Positions 7,481-11,003 are shown, counted from the stretch's first letter. The stretch is DNA of 64,000 nt from Candidatus Eiseniibacteriota bacterium (GCA_030622115.1 JAUXGN010000008.1:8185-72184); one strand, 5' to 3'. A program made the numbers and translations. Notes: generated from the sequence alone by a model not told the origin.

Positions 7481-10400
7481 ATGAACAACGAGAGACATGA
7501 TAACGCGCCGGGACGCGAGATGTTGAAAGCGTTCGAGAAGGTGCTTGAGTCGCGAAGCGGCAGAGATGCGGCAGTCGCGGCGATTCGCCTGGGCGATGTC
7601 TATCTCGAATCCGACAGCTACACTGATGCGCTGAGCTATTTCGAACGGGCCGAGGCCGGTGAGCTTCGCGAGAAGCTCACCGACCCTGAGGCCGCCTGCC
7701 TTCTGGTCGGCATTGCGAAGTGTCACCTCGGTCTTGGTAGCTACGACGACGCCAGACGCACCTGCGCGAAACTTGACGATCTCGATCTCAGTGAAGATGA
7801 TGGGTCAGCGTGGGCCGAAGCGAACATCGTGGTCGCCCGCGTGGAGATCGAGAGCGGTCGCTACGATGAGGCGTTGCGGGCAGCCCGGAAGGCCTACGAG
7901 ATCCTGAGGACAAGGCCCGACAGCCCGCTTCTGGCTGAGGCAGGCAAGAACCTTGGTGTCGCGAATGCCGAACTGGGCAACATCAAGGCGGCCCGCGACT
8001 ACTTCACCGACTACCTCGTAACACAGAAACGCCTCGGTGATGAGGCCGGACTCGCTTCCGCCTACAACAACCTCGGCGTGCTGGCCAAGCGATCGGGCGA
8101 CTTCCACGGGGCACTTGAGTACATCGAAGACGCTCTCACCATCGACCGCAAGCTTGGTCGCTCGATGGCGATCGCCGATCGTCTGACGAACCTCGGTATC
8201 ATCCTCTACAAGCTCTCTCGCTGGGGCGAAGCGGAAGAGAAGCTCAACGAAGCTCGCTCGCTCTACGGACAGATCGGAGCGACTCGCGGTCTCGTGGCCG
8301 CGGAGTCCGCGCTCGGCAACATCTTCCGCGTGCGGCGCGAGTGGGGTGAAGCGCAGAGACTCTTCCAGAACGCTCTCTCGGCGAGTCAGGAGAAGGGGTA
8401 CTTGAGGGCCGAAGCTCTGGCTCTCGAATTCATGGGTCATCTGGAGATGGACCGTGGAGAGCACGAGGAAGCGTTGAGGAAGTTCAACCGAGCGCTTGGG
8501 TGCGCGTACAGGCTATCGTCGAACAGCGATGTTGTAGGTGAAGTACTGAGAAGGCGCGCCCAGGTCTATTTGGAACTCGGTCGGCTCGATGAGGCGGAGC
8601 GAGATTGCTCCGACGGCATCAAGCTCACCCGTGAGATCGGTGATAGCCTTGAAGAGGGTGCGACCCTCCGTGTTCTCGCAAGCGTCTGCTATGCCAAGGG
8701 CGAACGGACGGCCGCTGAGGTCCTCATCCACAGGGCCGAAGAGATACTGCGTCGCATCGGAGAATCGTTCGAGCTGGCAAGGGCCGCGCTCGCGGATGGT
8801 ATAGGCCTCAGAGAATCGTCGATCGGGGATGAACCACCAATCGATCTGATCGAGGCCAGGCTCTCGTCCGCTGCCGCGATCTTTGCCCGGATAGCCCTAC
8901 CGAACTGGGTGGCGCGGTGTGAACTCGAACGCGGCAAGGCGCTCAAGGCGAGCGGACTGCCCGATCGCGCACGCAGGTGGTTTGAGGGTGCAAGACTCAG
9001 GTTTGAGGCGGCGCACGACAGCCACGGTCTTGCGGAGATCGACGCCGCGCTTATGGAGTTGGACACGATTCTGGCAGACGCGGGGATCGCGCGCCAGGGT
9101 CGGTACGCGTTGATCGTTGGAGGCTACAGGTTTCTTGAGACGACGCAGCCGAGTCCCGATGATCTTCATCGTTTTGCCGGAGAGCTGGCAAACGCTCTGT
9201 CCGCAGATCGGCTGGTTCTTCTTCAGGTTGCCGATGGAAGAGCGACGTCAGTGACGACTTCGGTCGACAGGACGGGAAGAGGTGTATCGGACGTGAGCCG
9301 TTTCGTGCGCACGACCGTTTCGAGGCGGGGTCATTCTCGACCTCTCGTTGTCAGCAACGGACACTCCGACGGCGCCTTCACCCAACCCGAAGTGGGCGCG
9401 CTGGCGCTCCTGCCGGTGGAAGTCGGCCTCGACCGCGAGCAAGTCTACCTTGTGTACGCGGATCGCTCTCGAGGGGACAGGTCGGTAGCGTTTGCGCAGA
9501 GCGACGTGGAATTCCTGAGTGCGTCAGGCCGCGTGCTTGGGCTTACCCACTCGCGGGTCGGTGGGACCATGGTCACACGTTCGACCGGGCAGGAGGCCGA
9601 CAAGCTGCTTGGCTCCGCTGAGACGATCGGACTCATCACCCGAAGTCCAGAGATGATTCAGATACTCGCGACGATCGAACAACTGGAGGGCAGTCGCGTG
9701 CCGGTTCTCATTAGAGGAGAATCCGGCGTAGGCAAGGAGCTGGTCGCGAAGGCTATCCACTTCGGTAGCAGGACGGCGACCGGGAGGTTCGTGGCCCTGA
9801 ACTCCGGCGCCATCGCTCCAAACCTCCAGGAGAGCGAACTCTTCGGCCATGTCCGGGGCGCCTTCACGGATGCCGATCGCGACCGACAGGGTCTGGTCGA
9901 GGCTGCGGCGGATGGGACGCTCTTCCTTGACGAGATAGGTGAGATGAGCCCCGGGCTTCAGGTGAAGCTTCTGAGATTCCTGCAGAACGGTGAATTCCGG
10001 CGGGTGGGAGAGAGCGTCACGAGGACGAGCAATGCCCGCGTCGTCTCGGCTACAAACAAGGACCTCCGGGACGAGGTCGAGAGCGGTGCGTTCAGACGGG
10101 ATCTCTTTTACAGACTCTGTGCCATTACGATAGAAGTACCTCCGCTCAGGGAGCGTCGGGAAGACATCCCGGCGCTGATGGACCATTTCCTTGAGCACTA
10201 CGCGAAGCGGGAGGGGAAGACGATCCCCGGGTTCACGCGGGAAGTCAGAGAGCTTTTCCTGAGGCATGGATGGATGGGGAACAACGTGCGGGAGTTGGAA
10301 AACGAGGTCCGCCGCGGCGTTGCCCTGACCAAGAGCGGCGAGGCCATCGGTATAGACAAGATGAGTCCAGAGATCAGAATTCGTGTTGATGTGGGTACGG

Positions 10401-10579
10401 ACGCAGACTCCCATGACGGATCACCCCGGTCGCTCAAGGATGAGGTCAGAGCGCTGGAGCGAAGTCGGATCCTCGAGGCGCTGGACCGCACTGGATGGAA
10501 CAAGCAGCAGGCAGCAGAGATCCTGGGCATGTCGCGCACCGGTCTCCACGCGAAAATGAAGAAGCAAGGAATAGGATAG
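7481..10579 (+). CDS. sigma54-dependent transcriptional activator (bEBP) with long N-terminal TPR array, putative GAF-like middle region, AAA+ sigma54-interaction domain and C-terminal Fis-type HTH; no receiver domain
   Basis: TPR-like repeats through first ~480 aa (LG.Y..A...), Walker A GESGVGKELVAKAIH, ESELFGH, GAFTDA (variant of GAFTGA), Walker B LFLDEIGEM, C-terminal QQAAEILGMSRTGLHAKMKK HTH. Confidence 0.85.
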   Translation: MNNERHDNAPGREMLKAFEKVLESRSGRDAAVAAIRLGDVYLESDSYTDALSYFERAEAGELREKLTDPEAACLLVGIAKCHLGLGSYDDARRTCAKLDDLDLSEDDGSAWAEANIVVARVEIESGRYDEALRAARKAYEILRTRPDSPLLAEAGKNLGVANAELGNIKAARDYFTDYLVTQKRLGDEAGLASAYNNLGVLAKRSGDFHGALEYIEDALTIDRKLGRSMAIADRLTNLGIILYKLSRWGEAEEKLNEARSLYGQIGATRGLVAAESALGNIFRVRREWGEAQRLFQNALSASQEKGYLRAEALALEFMGHLEMDRGEHEEALRKFNRALGCAYRLSSNSDVVGEVLRRRAQVYLELGRLDEAERDCSDGIKLTREIGDSLEEGATLRVLASVCYAKGERTAAEVLIHRAEEILRRIGESFELARAALADGIGLRESSIGDEPPIDLIEARLSSAAAIFARIALPNWVARCELERGKALKASGLPDRARRWFEGARLRFEAAHDSHGLAEIDAALMELDTILADAGIARQGRYALIVGGYRFLETTQPSPDDLHRFAGELANALSADRLVLLQVADGRATSVTTSVDRTGRGVSDVSRFVRTTVSRRGHSRPLVVSNGHSDGAFTQPEVGALALLPVEVGLDREQVYLVYADRSRGDRSVAFAQSDVEFLSASGRVLGLTHSRVGGTMVTRSTGQEADKLLGSAETIGLITRSPEMIQILATIEQLEGSRVPVLIRGESGVGKELVAKAIHFGSRTATGRFVALNSGAIAPNLQESELFGHVRGAFTDADRDRQGLVEAAADGTLFLDEIGEMSPGLQVKLLRFLQNGEFRRVGESVTRTSNARVVSATNKDLRDEVESGAFRRDLFYRLCAITIEVPPLRERREDIPALMDHFLEHYAKREGKTIPGFTREVRELFLRHGWMGNNVRELENEVRRGVALTKSGEAIGIDKMSPEIRIRVDVGTDADSHDGSPRSLKDEVRALERSRILEALDRTGWNKQQAAEILGMSRTGLHAKMKKQGIG

Positions 10580-10649
10580 CCGTCGCCTGTGCGACAGGCG
10601 CGTGCCGCCGTCGATGCCGCCCACGCGTTTTCAACCGCTCTTCCGGACC

Positions 10650-10672
10650 GGGCCGAAGTCGGCCCGTTTTTC
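10650..10672 (+). terminator. rho-independent terminator candidate downstream of EBP gene
   Basis: GGGCCGAAGTCGGCCC hairpin followed by GTTTTTCGTT. Confidence 0.5.
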
Positions 10673-10743
10673 GTTGTCCCTCCTCGGCGTCCGTGGGCTT
10701 CCGCCCGTTTTTCGTTGTCCCTCCTCGGCGCCCGTGGGCTTCC
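10662..10743. repeat. 41-bp tandem direct repeat x2 (CCCGTTTTTCGTTGTCCCTCCTCGGCG[T/C]CCGTGGGCTTCCG)
   Basis: Two adjacent near-identical 41-bp copies differing at one position, each containing a short GGGC-TTCC-GCCC hairpin plus T-run. Confidence 0.8.
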
Positions 10744-10986
10744 GCCCGGCTTCCCTTGAGCGTCCAATCTTCGACACAGTGTCGTAAACGTGACGGTCGC
10801 GTAACTACTGCTACCTGACCGAGTTAGCTGTAGTCCCTCTCAAGAACGTCCGATCCGCGGTCAGAACCTGCCACCATTCCCCGAAATGAGGCTAGGTCAC
10901 CCAAATCATGAGTGGTGTAACTTGCAGTGAGTAAGCATGTTAGCGCCACTGCAGGGAAGTGCGATTAGGGGGCCGATCGGCCCGAA

Positions 10987-11003
10987 TTGGCACGATGTCT
11001 GCC
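10987..11003 (+). promoter_or_regulatory. candidate sigma54 (-24/-12) promoter TTGGCACGATGTCTGC
   Basis: TGGCACG-N4-CTGC with GG(10989-90)/GC(11001-02) spacing of 12; inverted repeat TGCAGTG-N16-CACTGCA at 10924-10953 and palindrome GGGCCGATCGGCCC at 10969-10984 just upstream. Confidence 0.35.

What the first reader, a model, noticed from the sequence alone, without database searches (positions are those of the whole stretch)
7481..11003. TPR-GAF-like sigma54 activator with degenerate GAFTGA (GAFTDA) sitting directly upstream of a candidate sigma54 promoter for the RiPP locus
The 1032-aa EBP replaces the usual receiver domain with ~10 TPR repeats and a probable GAF-like region. That suggests control by protein-protein interaction or ligand rather than phosphorylation. 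Its sigma54-contact loop reads GAFTDA (the second Gly of GAFTGA is Asp), unusual for functional bEBPs. A terminator follows the gene, then ~300 bp later comes a TGGCACG-N4-CTGC element at 10988-11002. That element is preceded by a 7-bp inverted repeat (10924-10953) and a GGGCCGATCGGCCC palindrome. The first downstream ORF is a 29-codon GTG-initiated frame (VSEIIRGASPVALWPSSLPGITGSPDSSGR) behind GGAAGGGGG; the rSAM gene is ~500 bp away.
Basis: partly seen in the sequence, partly recalled or inferred. Interest (0 to 1): 0.55.

Follow-up and report, generated by a model that had tools for sequence, protein, structure and literature searches.

The report
TPR-GAF sigma-54 activator with conserved enhancer-promoter cassette
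A large regulator in an uncultured Eisenbacteria genome belongs to a family in which every copy examined is followed by the same enhancer and sigma-54 promoter layout, here leading toward a peptide-modification gene cluster, so it is a real but uncharacterised variant of a well-known kind of bacterial switch.

Summary
Window 7481-10579 encodes a 1032-aa enhancer-binding protein (EBP) with TPR array, GAF fold, sigma-54 AAA+ domain and Fis-type HTH. Its sigma-54 contact loop reads GAFTDA.

GAFTDA is not an error. 89 of 91 family members (48-91% identical, Candidatus Eisenbacteria) carry G[AS]FTDA. A validated sigma-54 activator, OrpR, is tabulated with the same loop.

The TGGCAC-N5-CTGC element at 10988 is strongly supported. 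All 26 EBP copies examined have TGGCAC-N5-xTGC 260-450 bp after their stop codon. Each has GTC-N8-GAC palindromes at fixed positions, two (-226 and -207) in 25 of 26.

- The 7-bp inverted repeat and the GGGCCGATCGGCCC palindrome are not conserved.
- The 29-codon GTG frame is not coding; it lies in a hairpin with covariation.
- The first conserved product is a 24-aa hydrophobic micro-ORF (11167-11241).

A terminator-like hairpin (11526-11551) and a second -24/-12-like element (11622-11637, present in 25/25 loci) lie before the rSAM gene. Direct control of the RiPP genes from 10988 is therefore unproven.

24 of 26 EBP genes examined are preceded by a small secreted GDDD[RN]W protein.

Verdict: new variant of a known kind, moderate interest.

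The parts
6906..6935 (+). Sigma-70-like promoter (TTGACA-N18-TAACAT) upstream of the small-protein/EBP gene pair
   Evidence: Consensus scan, 10 of 12 matches. Function inferred.
7080..7430 (+). Small secreted protein (116 aa): signal peptide, acidic region with GDDDRW, hydrophobic C-terminal tail. Ends 51 nt upstream of the EBP gene.
   Evidence: A protein of this type precedes 24 of the 26 EBP genes examined. Alignment A5 shows G-D-D-D-x-W invariant. No Pfam or NCBIfam family.
7481..10579 (+). TPR-GAF-AAA+-HTH enhancer-binding protein, 1032 aa
   Evidence: 92 homologues of the family at 48-91% identity.
7586..8770 (+). TPR array (residues ~36-430, about 11 repeats, MalT-like TPR)
   Evidence: Pfam TPR_12 (6 stretches), TPR_MalT and others.
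9053..9580 (+). GAF domain (residues ~525-700)
   Evidence: Pfam GAF in 8 of 19 members. AF2 model pLDDT 82. Foldseek top hits are GAF domains.
9632..10135 (+). Sigma-54 interaction AAA+ domain (residues 718-885), Walker A GESGVGKE and Walker B DEIGE intact
   Evidence: PF00158 E 1e-61. Invariant columns in A2.
9857..9874 (+). GAFTDA loop (residues 793-798)
   Evidence: G[AS]FTDA in 89 of 91 family members; outgroups have GAFTGA. Tree.
10445..10564 (+). Fis-type HTH_8 DNA-binding domain (residues 989-1028)
   Evidence: PF02954 E 3.6e-14.
10649..10718 (+). Two terminator-like hairpins with T tails after the EBP gene (10649-10666 and 10693-10708)
   Evidence: The first is alignable in L002.
10762..10775 (.). 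Candidate enhancer site 1, palindrome GTCCAATCTTCGAC (GTC-N8-GAC), 226 bp upstream of TGGCAC
   Evidence: Present at -224 to -228 in 25 of 26 EBP copies. Binding inferred.
10781..10794 (.). Candidate enhancer site 2, palindrome GTCGTAAACGTGAC, 207 bp upstream of TGGCAC
   Evidence: Present at -205 to -209 in 26 of 26 copies. Background 0.43 per kb against 6.9 per kb in these regions.
10802..10826 (.). Inverted repeat TAAC-N17-GTTA (copy at -186), found in close relatives only
10918..10942 (.). Inverted repeat TAAC-N17-GTTA at -70. Candidate site for a DNA-bending protein or a second regulator.
   Evidence: At -69 to -71 in 16 of 26 copies by a strict pattern; looser versions are visible in most others. 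Background 0.013 per kb.
10988..11003 (+). Sigma-54-type promoter P1, TGGCACGATGTCTGCC. Predicted start about 11013.
   Evidence: TGGCAC-N5-xTGC lies 260-450 bp after the stop codon of 26 of 26 EBP copies, and of all 16 metagenome loci with enough upstream DNA. 25 of the 28 such motifs in about 399 kb (both strands) are these.
11037..11107 (+). Leader RNA hairpin. Outer stem 11037-11054 / 11091-11107; invariant apex GGGGGGCGAGTCCGGTCGCTCT at 11069-11090.
   Evidence: 16 pairs, 9 with changes on both sides, 94.7% paired; 0 of 500 shuffles reach the score.
11122..11139 (+). Second leader hairpin, just upstream of the micro-ORF ribosome-binding site
   Evidence: Covariation visible in A4 (helix 3 has 2 of 4 pairs with both-side changes).
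11167..11241 (+). Micro-ORF, 24 aa: MPSAARVKIIIVILLIGIASPFLG
   Evidence: Found in 13 of 13 group A loci and 17 of 17 metagenome hits. Changes are synonymous third-position changes, plus an in-frame 6-nt insertion in L010 and L011. No family match.
11366..11470 (+). Conserved stems after the micro-ORF: 11366-11372 / 11408-11415 and GGCCGGCAGG / CCTGCCGGC at 11428-11437 / 11461-11470
   Evidence: 6 of 16 pairs with both-side changes.
11526..11561 (+). Terminator-like hairpin (11 pairs, 9 G-C) with tail TCTTTCTATT, between the micro-ORF and the rSAM gene
   Evidence: Analogous but non-homologous hairpins in L001 and L009. A T-run follows the GGCCGGCAGG hairpin in L013 and L096. None found in L003.
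11622..11637 (+). Second -24/-12-like element P2, TGGTCAGTAACTTGCT
   Evidence: TGG-N8-TTGC[AT] lies between the micro-ORF and the rSAM gene in 25 of 25 group A loci; background 0.04 per kb per strand. Function not shown.
11720..14209 (+). rSAM/SPASM peptide maturase (start approximate) with an unassigned N-terminal extension of about 410 aa
   Evidence: Pfam Radical_SAM. Best NCBIfam hits are PapB and QhpD, below their cut-offs. Conserved start region.
14175..14551 (+). Two precursor peptides: preA 14175-14345 and preB 14384-14551. M.HLRLANG-type leaders and repeated Cys-X2-3-Asp motifs.
14561..17543 (+). FG-GAP beta-propeller protein, ABC ATPase and ABC-2 permease
   Evidence: Synteny.

Best explanation
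The gene encodes a working sigma-54 enhancer-binding protein. Its input module is a TPR array plus a GAF domain instead of a phosphorylatable receiver.

Proposed mechanism, with the status of each step:
1. The gene is transcribed together with a small secreted-protein gene from a sigma-70-like promoter, and is closed off by an intrinsic terminator (inferred from sequence).
2. The protein binds through its Fis-type HTH to two tandem GTC-N8-GAC palindromes at 10762-10794 (inferred).
3. With help from an element at -70, it contacts sigma-54 holoenzyme at TGGCAC-N5-CTGC (10988) and uses ATP to open the promoter (inferred by analogy with NifA, NorR and Nlh2).
4. By the same analogy, the GAF domain holds the ATPase off until a signal is received through GAF and/or the TPR array (inferred).

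What is shown directly: the GAFTDA loop is the normal, selected state of this Eisenbacteria family. The transcript from 10988 would begin with a conserved structured leader and a 24-aa membrane micro-ORF.

What is not settled: whether that transcript continues into the rSAM/ranthipeptide-like operon, or whether that operon depends on the second -24/-12 element at 11622.
For: - Domains and intact ATPase motifs; GAF fold.
- G[AS]FTDA in 89 of 91 homologues at 48-91% identity, against GAFTGA in outgroups.
- PMC4641369 Table 1 lists DVU2106/OrpR as GAFTDA. OrpR is an experimentally validated sigma-54 activator with ChIP-seq-confirmed palindromic sites (PMC8359166).
- A canonical GAFTGA response-regulator EBP, with a perfect sigma-54 consensus promoter after it, lies in the same window. 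This implies that sigma-54 is used by this organism.
- 26 of 26 EBP copies in two paralogue groups are followed by TGGCAC-N5-xTGC, with GTC-N8-GAC palindromes at fixed positions (site -207 in 26 of 26, site -226 in 25 of 26), while the surrounding DNA is unalignable.
- 16 further metagenome loci show the same layout.
- Group B copies keep the cassette without any adjacent response-regulator EBP.
- The half-site centres of GTC-N8-GAC are one helical turn apart, as for NtrC-family dimers (established knowledge).
Against: - No rpoN gene was found in the window or in the 1.16 Mb of fetched loci, and the genomes were not searched.
- There are no transcript or binding data.
- The effect of Gly to Asp in the loop is untested here. 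VfmH, another GAFTDA protein, did not pull down sigma-54 (PMC10714721).
- Assigning the palindromes to this protein, rather than the -70 repeat, is inference.
- A terminator-like hairpin and a second -24/-12 element lie between P1 and the rSAM gene.
- All paralogues share nearly the same palindrome core, so which paralogue acts at which promoter is not established.
Confidence: 0.72

Rival explanations
1. The 10988 promoter is activated by the NtrC-type response regulator encoded at the end of the operon (19642-20982, GAFTGA) together with its PAS histidine kinase. On this reading the TPR-GAF protein has lost sigma-54 contact and acts as a sigma-70-type repressor or activator, like TyrR, HupR, VpsR or Caulobacter NtrC.
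For: The histidine kinase and response-regulator EBP are syntenic with the RiPP operon in all group A loci long enough to show them. The response regulator has the canonical loop. EBP homologues with altered loops can be sigma-54-independent (PMC3162934).
Against: - The response regulator has its own conserved sigma-54 promoter directly downstream (21161-21176, also in L093 and L100), leading to a ZraP/Spy-like gene. This looks like a ZraSR-ZraP-type module.
- Group B TPR-GAF genes keep the promoter and palindromes with no response-regulator EBP nearby.
- The altered residue is position 5 of the loop, not the critical Phe or Thr.
- OrpR, tabulated as GAFTDA, is an experimentally validated sigma-54 activator.
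Confidence: 0.1
2. The direct and main product of the 10988 promoter is a roughly 0.5-kb structured RNA carrying the 24-aa micro-ORF. This would be a small regulatory RNA or micro-protein gene ending at the 11526-11551 hairpin. The rSAM operon would be transcribed separately from the element at 11622, possibly with a different activator.
For: - Covarying hairpins and a strictly conserved micro-ORF.
- Strong GC hairpins with T-containing tails before the rSAM gene in the window, L001 and L009, and T-runs after the GGCCGGCAGG hairpin in L013 and L096.
- TGG-N8-TTGC[AT] in 25 of 25 loci.
- Sigma-54 EBPs next to sigma-54-dependent small RNA genes are described in D. vulgaris (PMC4641369 Table 1).
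Against: - The T tails are weak for intrinsic terminators, and L003 has none by the scan rule.
- In most loci the second element lies upstream of those hairpins, inside a stem-loop, so it may be an RNA element rather than a promoter.
- No separate enhancer was found for it.
- This rival concerns the target of the promoter, not the identity of the activator.
Confidence: 0.35
3. The conserved -24/-12 motif and palindromes are not transcription signals. They would be ends or recombination sites of a duplicating gene cassette, which would explain their presence next to every paralogue.
For: The unit (small protein gene, EBP gene, downstream elements) occurs in several copies per genome and in tandem in L005 and L019.
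Against: - The motif matches the sigma-54 consensus at exactly the invariant GG and GC positions, with a variable spacer.
- It always lies on the coding strand, upstream of downstream genes.
- No repeats flank the other side of the unit, and no transposase or integrase is nearby.
Confidence: 0.03

Closest known systems
GAF-AAA+-HTH enhancer-binding proteins (NifA, NorR, FhlA, Aquifex Nlh2)
   Same: A GAF domain sits directly N-terminal to the sigma-54 AAA+ domain, with a Fis-type HTH and no receiver. The model's fold matches include the Nlh2 and NifA GAF domains. Negative control of the ATPase by GAF is the expected logic.
   Different: An extra TPR array and helical linker of about 500 residues lies in front of the GAF domain. 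The loop is GAFTDA, not GAFTGA. The ligand is unknown. NCBIfam scores are far below every equivalog cut-off.
OrpR (DVU2106) of Desulfovibrio vulgaris
   Same: Single-component sigma-54 activator listed with a GAFTDA loop. Its gene is co-located with its sigma-54 promoters and it binds palindromes upstream of them; IHF is needed (PMC4641369, PMC8359166, PMC3897727).
   Different: OrpR senses redox through an Fe-S cluster and has no TPR array. Its site is GGGCGYRTTTTGCGCCC, and its targets are the orp operons.
Ser/Thr-kinase-(AAA_16)-TPR-GAF-AAA+-HTH fusion proteins of Planctomycetota and Deltaproteobacteria (P0094-P0120)
   Same: The C-terminal TPR-GAF-sigma54 AAA+-HTH arrangement. They share 38-50% identity over the AAA+ region.
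   Different: They are 1250-1800 aa with an N-terminal kinase and usually a STAND NTPase. Their loops are canonical or near-canonical (mostly GAFTGA), none with Asp at position 5. None is characterised, to my knowledge.
RRNPP peptide receptors with adjacent pro-peptide genes (Rap-Phr, NprR-NprX, PlcR-PapR)
   Same: A cytoplasmic TPR-domain regulator is encoded next to a small, divergent gene for a protein with a signal peptide, and there are several paralogous pairs per genome. This is an analogy from established knowledge only.
   Different: RRNPP proteins are Firmicutes regulators with HTH or phosphatase outputs, not AAA+ sigma-54 activators. Here the small gene is upstream and encodes 110-133 aa. 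No processing, import or binding has been shown.
PapB / QhpD radical SAM-SPASM thioether (ranthipeptide-type) systems
   Same: The best NCBIfam hits of the maturase are PapB and QhpD (E 1e-73). The precursors carry repeated Cys-X2-3-Asp motifs.
   Different: Scores are below the cut-offs (248 against 340 and 453). The maturase has an unassigned N-terminal extension of about 410 aa. An FG-GAP propeller is part of the operon. Sigma-54 control has not been described for this class, as far as my searches went.
ZraS-ZraR-ZraP envelope stress module (for the neighbouring two-component system)
   Same: Histidine kinase, NtrC-type EBP with GAFTGA, perfect sigma-54 promoter (21161-21176), then an LTXXQ/Metal_resist periplasmic protein.
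   Different: The gene order is co-linear rather than divergent. The kinase has a PAS domain. NCBIfam ZraR scores 447 against a cut-off of 760.

Membership tests
Bacterial enhancer-binding proteins (sigma-54 activators) | Central AAA+ sigma-54 interaction domain (PF00158) with Walker A and Walker B motifs | tested here: met
   PF00158 E 1.1e-61 over residues 718-885. GESGVGKE and DEIGE are invariant in the family alignment.
Bacterial enhancer-binding proteins (sigma-54 activators) | GAFTGA loop that contacts sigma-54 region I | tested here: inconclusive
   The loop is GAFTDA (5 of 6 positions; Phe and Thr kept). It is conserved in 89 of 91 members. The same variant is listed for the validated activator OrpR. 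VfmH with GAFTDA did not pull down sigma-54.
Bacterial enhancer-binding proteins (sigma-54 activators) | C-terminal DNA-binding HTH | tested here: met
   HTH_8 E 3.6e-14, residues 989-1028.
Bacterial enhancer-binding proteins (sigma-54 activators) | Cognate -24/-12 promoter with upstream enhancer sites | tested here: met
   TGGCAC-N5-xTGC follows 26 of 26 copies. GTC-N8-GAC palindromes at -207 (26 of 26) and -226 (25 of 26). The evidence is sequence conservation only.
Bacterial enhancer-binding proteins (sigma-54 activators) | Sigma-54 (rpoN) encoded in the same genome | not tested
   None in the window or in the fetched loci. Whole genomes could not be searched. The indirect support is the canonical GAFTGA EBP and consensus promoter in the window.
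Bacterial enhancer-binding proteins (sigma-54 activators) | ATP-dependent open-complex formation with E-sigma54 | not testable with these tools
   Needs in vitro transcription or in vivo reporters.
GAF domain | GAF fold (central antiparallel sheet flanked by helices) | tested here: met
   AF2 model pLDDT 82, pTM 0.78. 243 PDB matches at E <= 0.001, and the top matches are GAF domains. Pfam GAF in 8 of 19 members.
TPR proteins | Tandem 34-residue helix-turn-helix repeats | tested here: met
   TPR_12 E 1.7e-39 (6 stretches), TPR_MalT E 1.8e-24, and others.
RRNPP-type peptide signal/receptor pairs | Secreted pro-peptide processed to a short peptide that is re-imported and binds the TPR domain | not testable with these tools
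   Only the adjacency of a signal-peptide protein gene to 24 of 26 EBP genes is shown. No sequence similarity to RRNPP proteins was tested or claimed.
PapB/QhpD-type ranthipeptide systems (downstream operon) | rSAM/SPASM maturase reaching the family cut-off, and precursors with Cys-Xn-Asp/Glu motifs | tested here: inconclusive
   The maturase scores 248 bits against cut-offs of 340 (PapB) and 453 (QhpD). Precursors with repeated C-X2-3-D motifs are present.

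The most novel reading that the evidence does not exclude
Each cassette is a cell-cell or envelope signalling unit new for sigma-54 systems. The small secreted GDDD[RN]W protein, or the ranthipeptide-like product, would supply a peptide cue that the cytoplasmic TPR array reads, as in RRNPP receptors. The GAF-gated GAFTDA ATPase would convert this cue into sigma-54 transcription of a micro-protein/RNA and of peptide-modification genes. 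Paralogous cassettes would form cascades, as in the tandem pair in L005 and L019.
Probability: 0.12. Interest if true: 0.75.

Novelty: new variant of a known kind. Interest (0 to 1): 0.45.

Why it matters
Sigma-54 activators are normally grouped by a short list of sensor modules: receiver, PAS, GAF, V4R, PRD and FHA. This finding adds a TPR+GAF class that is abundant in an uncultured phylum.

It also shows that Gly-to-Asp at loop position 5 can be fixed across a whole clade that keeps textbook -24/-12 promoters. And it supplies a ready-made regulon of at least 40 loci with an unusually rigid enhancer-promoter geometry. That makes the DNA site, the promoter class (TGGCAC-N5-ATGCC) and the loop variant directly testable together.

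The locus also links sigma-54 control to a ranthipeptide-like RiPP operon and to a conserved micro-protein with a structured leader. I found no family match for either the micro-protein or the leader.

None of this changes how sigma-54 activation is understood. It extends the catalogue and offers a clean system for experiments.

Tried and rejected
- **Sequencing-error reading of GAFTDA.** Rejected: 89 of 91 homologues share it.
Rejected: not conserved beyond close relatives.
Rejected: start codon, frame and end are not conserved, and 2-nt indels occur. The region is explained by a covarying hairpin.
- **Known RNA families for the leader.** None at gathering thresholds. The only hit at relaxed E-value is a spurious microRNA-precursor match to the hairpin.
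- **Single-sequence folding of the leader.** Not significant (z -1.16). Only comparative evidence supports the structure.
- **rpoN in the window or fetched loci.** Not found. A literature search on Eisenbacteria and sigma-54 gave nothing.
- **Literature on TPR-containing EBPs.** Nothing specific.
- **Family assignment for the small secreted protein, the micro-ORF, preA, preB and the rSAM N-terminal extension.** No Pfam or NCBIfam match.
- **Shared enhancer motifs between the 21161 promoter region and the P2 region.** Only two 9-mers are shared, which is not convincing.
- **A possible small ORF after the promoter in group B loci L004, L015 and L027.** The start is conserved but the ends are not, so no claim is made.
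- **First P2 count.** It used the wrong spacing and found nothing. Corrected.

Full report
**1. What is in the window**

ORF 7481-10579 (+) encodes 1032 aa. Pfam assigns four regions:
- TPR families over residues ~36-430 (TPR_12 in six stretches, MalT-like TPR)
- Sigma54_activat at 718-885 (E 1e-61)
- AAA_lid_14 at 890-969
- HTH_8 at 989-1028

There is no receiver domain. The sigma-54 contact loop reads ELFGHVRGAFTDA, with GAFTDA at residues 793-798 (nt 9857-9874).

The unassigned stretch between the TPR array and the AAA+ domain is a GAF domain. Three results support this:
- Scanned member by member, residues 525-716 match Pfam GAF in 8 of 19 family members (best E 4.9e-6).
- An AlphaFold model built on the family alignment has pLDDT 82 and pTM 0.78.
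- Its best PDB matches are GAF domains, including those of the enhancer-binding proteins Nlh2 (4g3v) and NifA (8jrc).

Two terminator-like hairpins follow the stop codon, at 10649-10666 and 10693-10708. TGGCACGATGTCTGCC lies at 10988-11003.

**2. GAFTDA is the family norm**

A database search returned 92 homologues with the same architecture at 48-91% identity. Where named, they come from Candidatus Eisenbacteria.

- Of the 91 that include the loop, 80 read GAFTDA and 9 read GSFTDA. Two (P0074, P0075) read GAFTGA.
- Of the 28 more distant hits, 24 read GAFTGA, three GAFSGA and one GAYTGS; none has Asp at loop position 5.
- In a neighbour-joining tree the two GAFTGA members are nested inside the GAFTDA clade.
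- Walker A and B residues are invariant.

The Asp is selected.

It is not unprecedented. Kazakov et al. list GAFTDA for DVU2106 among loop variants held compatible with activation (PMC4641369). DVU2106 is OrpR, a sigma-54 activator validated in vivo and in vitro (PMC8359166). Against this, VfmH of Dickeya also has GAFTDA and did not pull down sigma-54 (PMC10714721).

The same window encodes a canonical GAFTGA response-regulator EBP (19642-20982). Both loop types therefore coexist in one organism.

**3. The promoter is real by comparative evidence**

On its own, the 10988 element is no better than chance: 19 two-mismatch matches occur in the window against 21.9 expected. Its weight comes from other loci.

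I collected the loci of family members from genomes and metagenomes. They fall into two paralogue groups, and several genomes hold both:
- Group A: at least 61% identical to the window protein.
- Group B: 50-56% identical.

Findings across these loci:
- All 26 EBP copies examined have TGGCAC-N5-xTGC (one has CGGCAC, two have TGGCAT) on the coding strand, 260-450 bp after their stop codon.
- In about 399 kb of these loci, both strands, the motif TGGCA[CT]-N5-NTGC occurs 28 times, and 25 of those are these sites.
- The GG and GC dinucleotides are invariant while the spacer varies. This is the pattern expected of a sigma-54 promoter.
- The family consensus is CTGGCAC(G/A)-N4-ATGCC.

**4.

Aligned on the promoter, 25 of the 26 copies carry two GTC-N8-GAC palindromes, 224-228 and 205-209 bp upstream of TGGCAC. 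The remaining copy (L022) has the -208 site plus one at -129 instead of the -226 site.
- In the window they are GTCCAATCTTCGAC (10762-10775) and GTCGTAAACGTGAC (10781-10794).
- The motif density is 6.9 per kb in these 300-bp regions and 0.43 per kb elsewhere.
- The half-site centres are one helical turn apart, as for NtrC-family dimers (established knowledge).
- The flanks differ slightly between groups: CGTC...GACGG in group A, TGTCG...CGACG in group B.

A TAAC-N17-GTTA inverted repeat sits at -69 to -71 in at least 16 of 26 copies (window 10918-10942; background 0.013 per kb). This is the position where a DNA-bending protein usually acts at sigma-54 promoters.

That the EBP binds the palindromes is inference. 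What is shown is that these elements travel with the EBP gene, whatever lies downstream.

**5. What the promoter drives**

In group A the EBP is always followed by the same operon:
- an rSAM/SPASM maturase
- two or three precursor peptides
- an FG-GAP propeller protein
- an ABC ATPase and an ABC-2 permease
- a PAS histidine kinase and an NtrC-type EBP

The maturase's best family hits are PapB and QhpD, both below cut-off. The precursors carry repeated Cys-X2-3-Asp motifs. 'RiPP locus' is therefore a fair description, of a ranthipeptide-like kind.

However, about 700 nt separate the promoter from the maturase's conserved N-terminus, and that stretch is full of conserved features.

(a) *A long leader hairpin, 11037-11107.* Its outer stem has 16 pairs, 9 of them with changes on both sides, and 94.7% of cells are paired. 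Its apex, GGGGGGCGAGTCCGGTCGCTCT, is nearly invariant. No shuffle of 500 reaches the observed covariation score, and slid controls score about half.

(b) *A second covarying hairpin, 11122-11139.* It is followed by a purine-rich ribosome-binding site.

(c) *A 24-aa ORF, 11167-11241 (MPSAARVKIIIVILLIGIASPFLG).* It is found in all 13 group A loci. Its changes are synonymous third-position changes, and two loci carry an in-frame 6-nt insertion. A metagenome scan with its invariant DNA found 17 more copies, all in this same context.

(d) *Further conserved stems.* These include GGCCGGCAGG / CCTGCCGGC at 11428-11470.

(e) *A strong hairpin with a T-containing tail at 11526-11551.* Analogous hairpins occur in L001 and L009. 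In L013 and L096 a T-run follows the GGCCGGCAGG hairpin. L003 has none by the scan rule.

(f) *A second -24/-12-like element, TGGTCAGTAACTTGCT at 11622-11637.* TGG-N8-TTGC[AT] occurs between the micro-ORF and the maturase in 25 of 25 loci, against 0.04 per kb per strand overall. Its position relative to the RNA structures differs between clades. That argues for a DNA signal, but this is not proven.

No Rfam family matches the leader.

The immediate product of the 10988 promoter is thus a structured RNA carrying a micro-ORF. Whether it reads through to the RiPP genes cannot be decided from sequence.

**6. The neighbouring two-component system is a separate module**

Downstream of the response-regulator EBP lies a perfect sigma-54 consensus, TGGCACCTCGGTTGCT (21161-21176). 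It is followed by an LTXXQ/Metal_resist (ZraP/Spy-like) gene at 21312-21926. The promoter is conserved in L093 and L100.

This resembles ZraSR-ZraP and gives the response regulator its own target. Together with the group B loci that lack any such regulator, this makes it unlikely that the response regulator, rather than the TPR-GAF protein, serves the 10988 promoter.

**7. A conserved partner gene**

24 of the 26 EBP genes examined are preceded, by 35-170 nt, by a gene for a 110-133-aa protein. It has a signal peptide, an acidic region with invariant GDDD[RN]W, and a hydrophobic C-terminal tail (window 7080-7430). A sigma-70-like promoter lies upstream of the pair at 6906-6935.

The clearest exception is P0074, which carries GAFTGA. 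The sigma-54 promoter downstream of P0074 drives the small protein and a second TPR-GAF EBP in tandem (L005 and L019).

The function of the small protein is unknown. The arrangement recalls TPR peptide receptors encoded next to secreted pro-peptide genes (RRNPP systems). That is an analogy only.

**8. Mechanism and standing**

- Shown: the domain architecture, the conservation of the loop, the conserved promoter and palindromes with fixed geometry, the synteny, the leader structure and the micro-ORF.
- Inferred: that the protein binds the palindromes, that it activates E-sigma54 at 10988, that GAF and TPR gate the ATPase, and that the RiPP genes belong to the regulon.
- Not tested: rpoN in these genomes.

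The finding is a new variant of a known kind: a TPR+GAF class of sigma-54 activator with a clade-wide GAFTDA loop and a stereotyped cis-regulatory cassette. A sigma-54 specialist would find it tidy and useful rather than startling.

Noticed in passing
window 11167-11241: A 24-aa hydrophobic micro-ORF (MPSAARVKIIIVILLIGIASPFLG) with a coding-type substitution pattern. Its first and last codons are also complementary to each other (GCCGAGCGCGGCGAG / CTCGCCGTTCCTCGGC) and are nearly invariant at the DNA level. No family match.
   Followed up: partly
window 11622-11637: A second -24/-12-like element, TGGTCAGTAACTTGCT, upstream of the rSAM gene. It is present in 25 of 25 related loci but at two different positions relative to the leader structures. 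In the window clade the ancestral position (about 11383) keeps TGGTCAG but has lost TTGC.
   Followed up: partly
window 7080-7430: A small secreted protein with an invariant GDDD[RN]W motif, encoded directly upstream of almost every TPR-GAF EBP gene. It diverges strongly between paralogues. No known family.
   Followed up: partly
window 17597-21926: PAS histidine kinase, NtrC-type EBP (GAFTGA), perfect sigma-54 consensus at 21161-21176, and a ZraP/Spy-like LTXXQ gene at 21312-21926. This is a ZraSR-ZraP-like module that always follows the RiPP operon. The long minus-strand ORF 21075-21998 is probably spurious.
   Followed up: partly
window 11720-12950: The rSAM/SPASM maturase carries an N-terminal extension of about 410 aa with no Pfam match. 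It contains acidic motifs (FLSQDGLLDG, YQLADDLVDLREDL) that recall isoprenoid-synthase DDxxD motifs. That resemblance is from memory and was not tested.
   Followed up: no
window 14175-14345 and 14384-14551: Two precursor peptides with leaders of the type M(K/N)(L/H)(A/L)(N/R)..ANG. Their cores hold five Cys-X2-3-Asp motifs each, ending in DTG or VDY. Some relatives carry a third copy.
   Followed up: partly
L005 10001-19363 and L019: Two TPR-GAF EBP genes in tandem. The first has GAFTGA and no upstream small protein. Its downstream sigma-54 promoter precedes the small protein and the second EBP, whose own downstream promoter precedes a 606-aa secreted protein. This may be a regulatory cascade.
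   Followed up: partly
L004 13458-14060, L015, L027: In one group B subfamily, the promoter after the EBP is followed by several hundred conserved bases with no clear gene. A possible 29-77-aa frame begins VRQEEPDPTLVKGFP but has no conserved end. Isochorismatase, flavin oxidoreductase and a second radical-SAM-like gene follow.
   Followed up: no
window 10666-10745: A direct repeat of about 40 bp (GTTTTTCGTTGTCCCTCCTCGGCG.CCGTGGGCTTCCGCCC) duplicates the terminator region after the EBP gene.
   Followed up: no
window 38474-38489: TGGCACGTCCCTTGTT, one mismatch from the sigma-54 consensus, lies about 235 bp upstream of a PorV-like gene (38725-39711). It may be another sigma-54 promoter in this genome.
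   Followed up: no
window 6331-6837: An ArsR-family HTH regulator is syntenic upstream of the small-protein/EBP pair in group A loci, next to a divergent block of RlmN-like rSAM, Omp85 and S49 peptidase genes. Its relation to the cassette is unknown.
   Followed up: no
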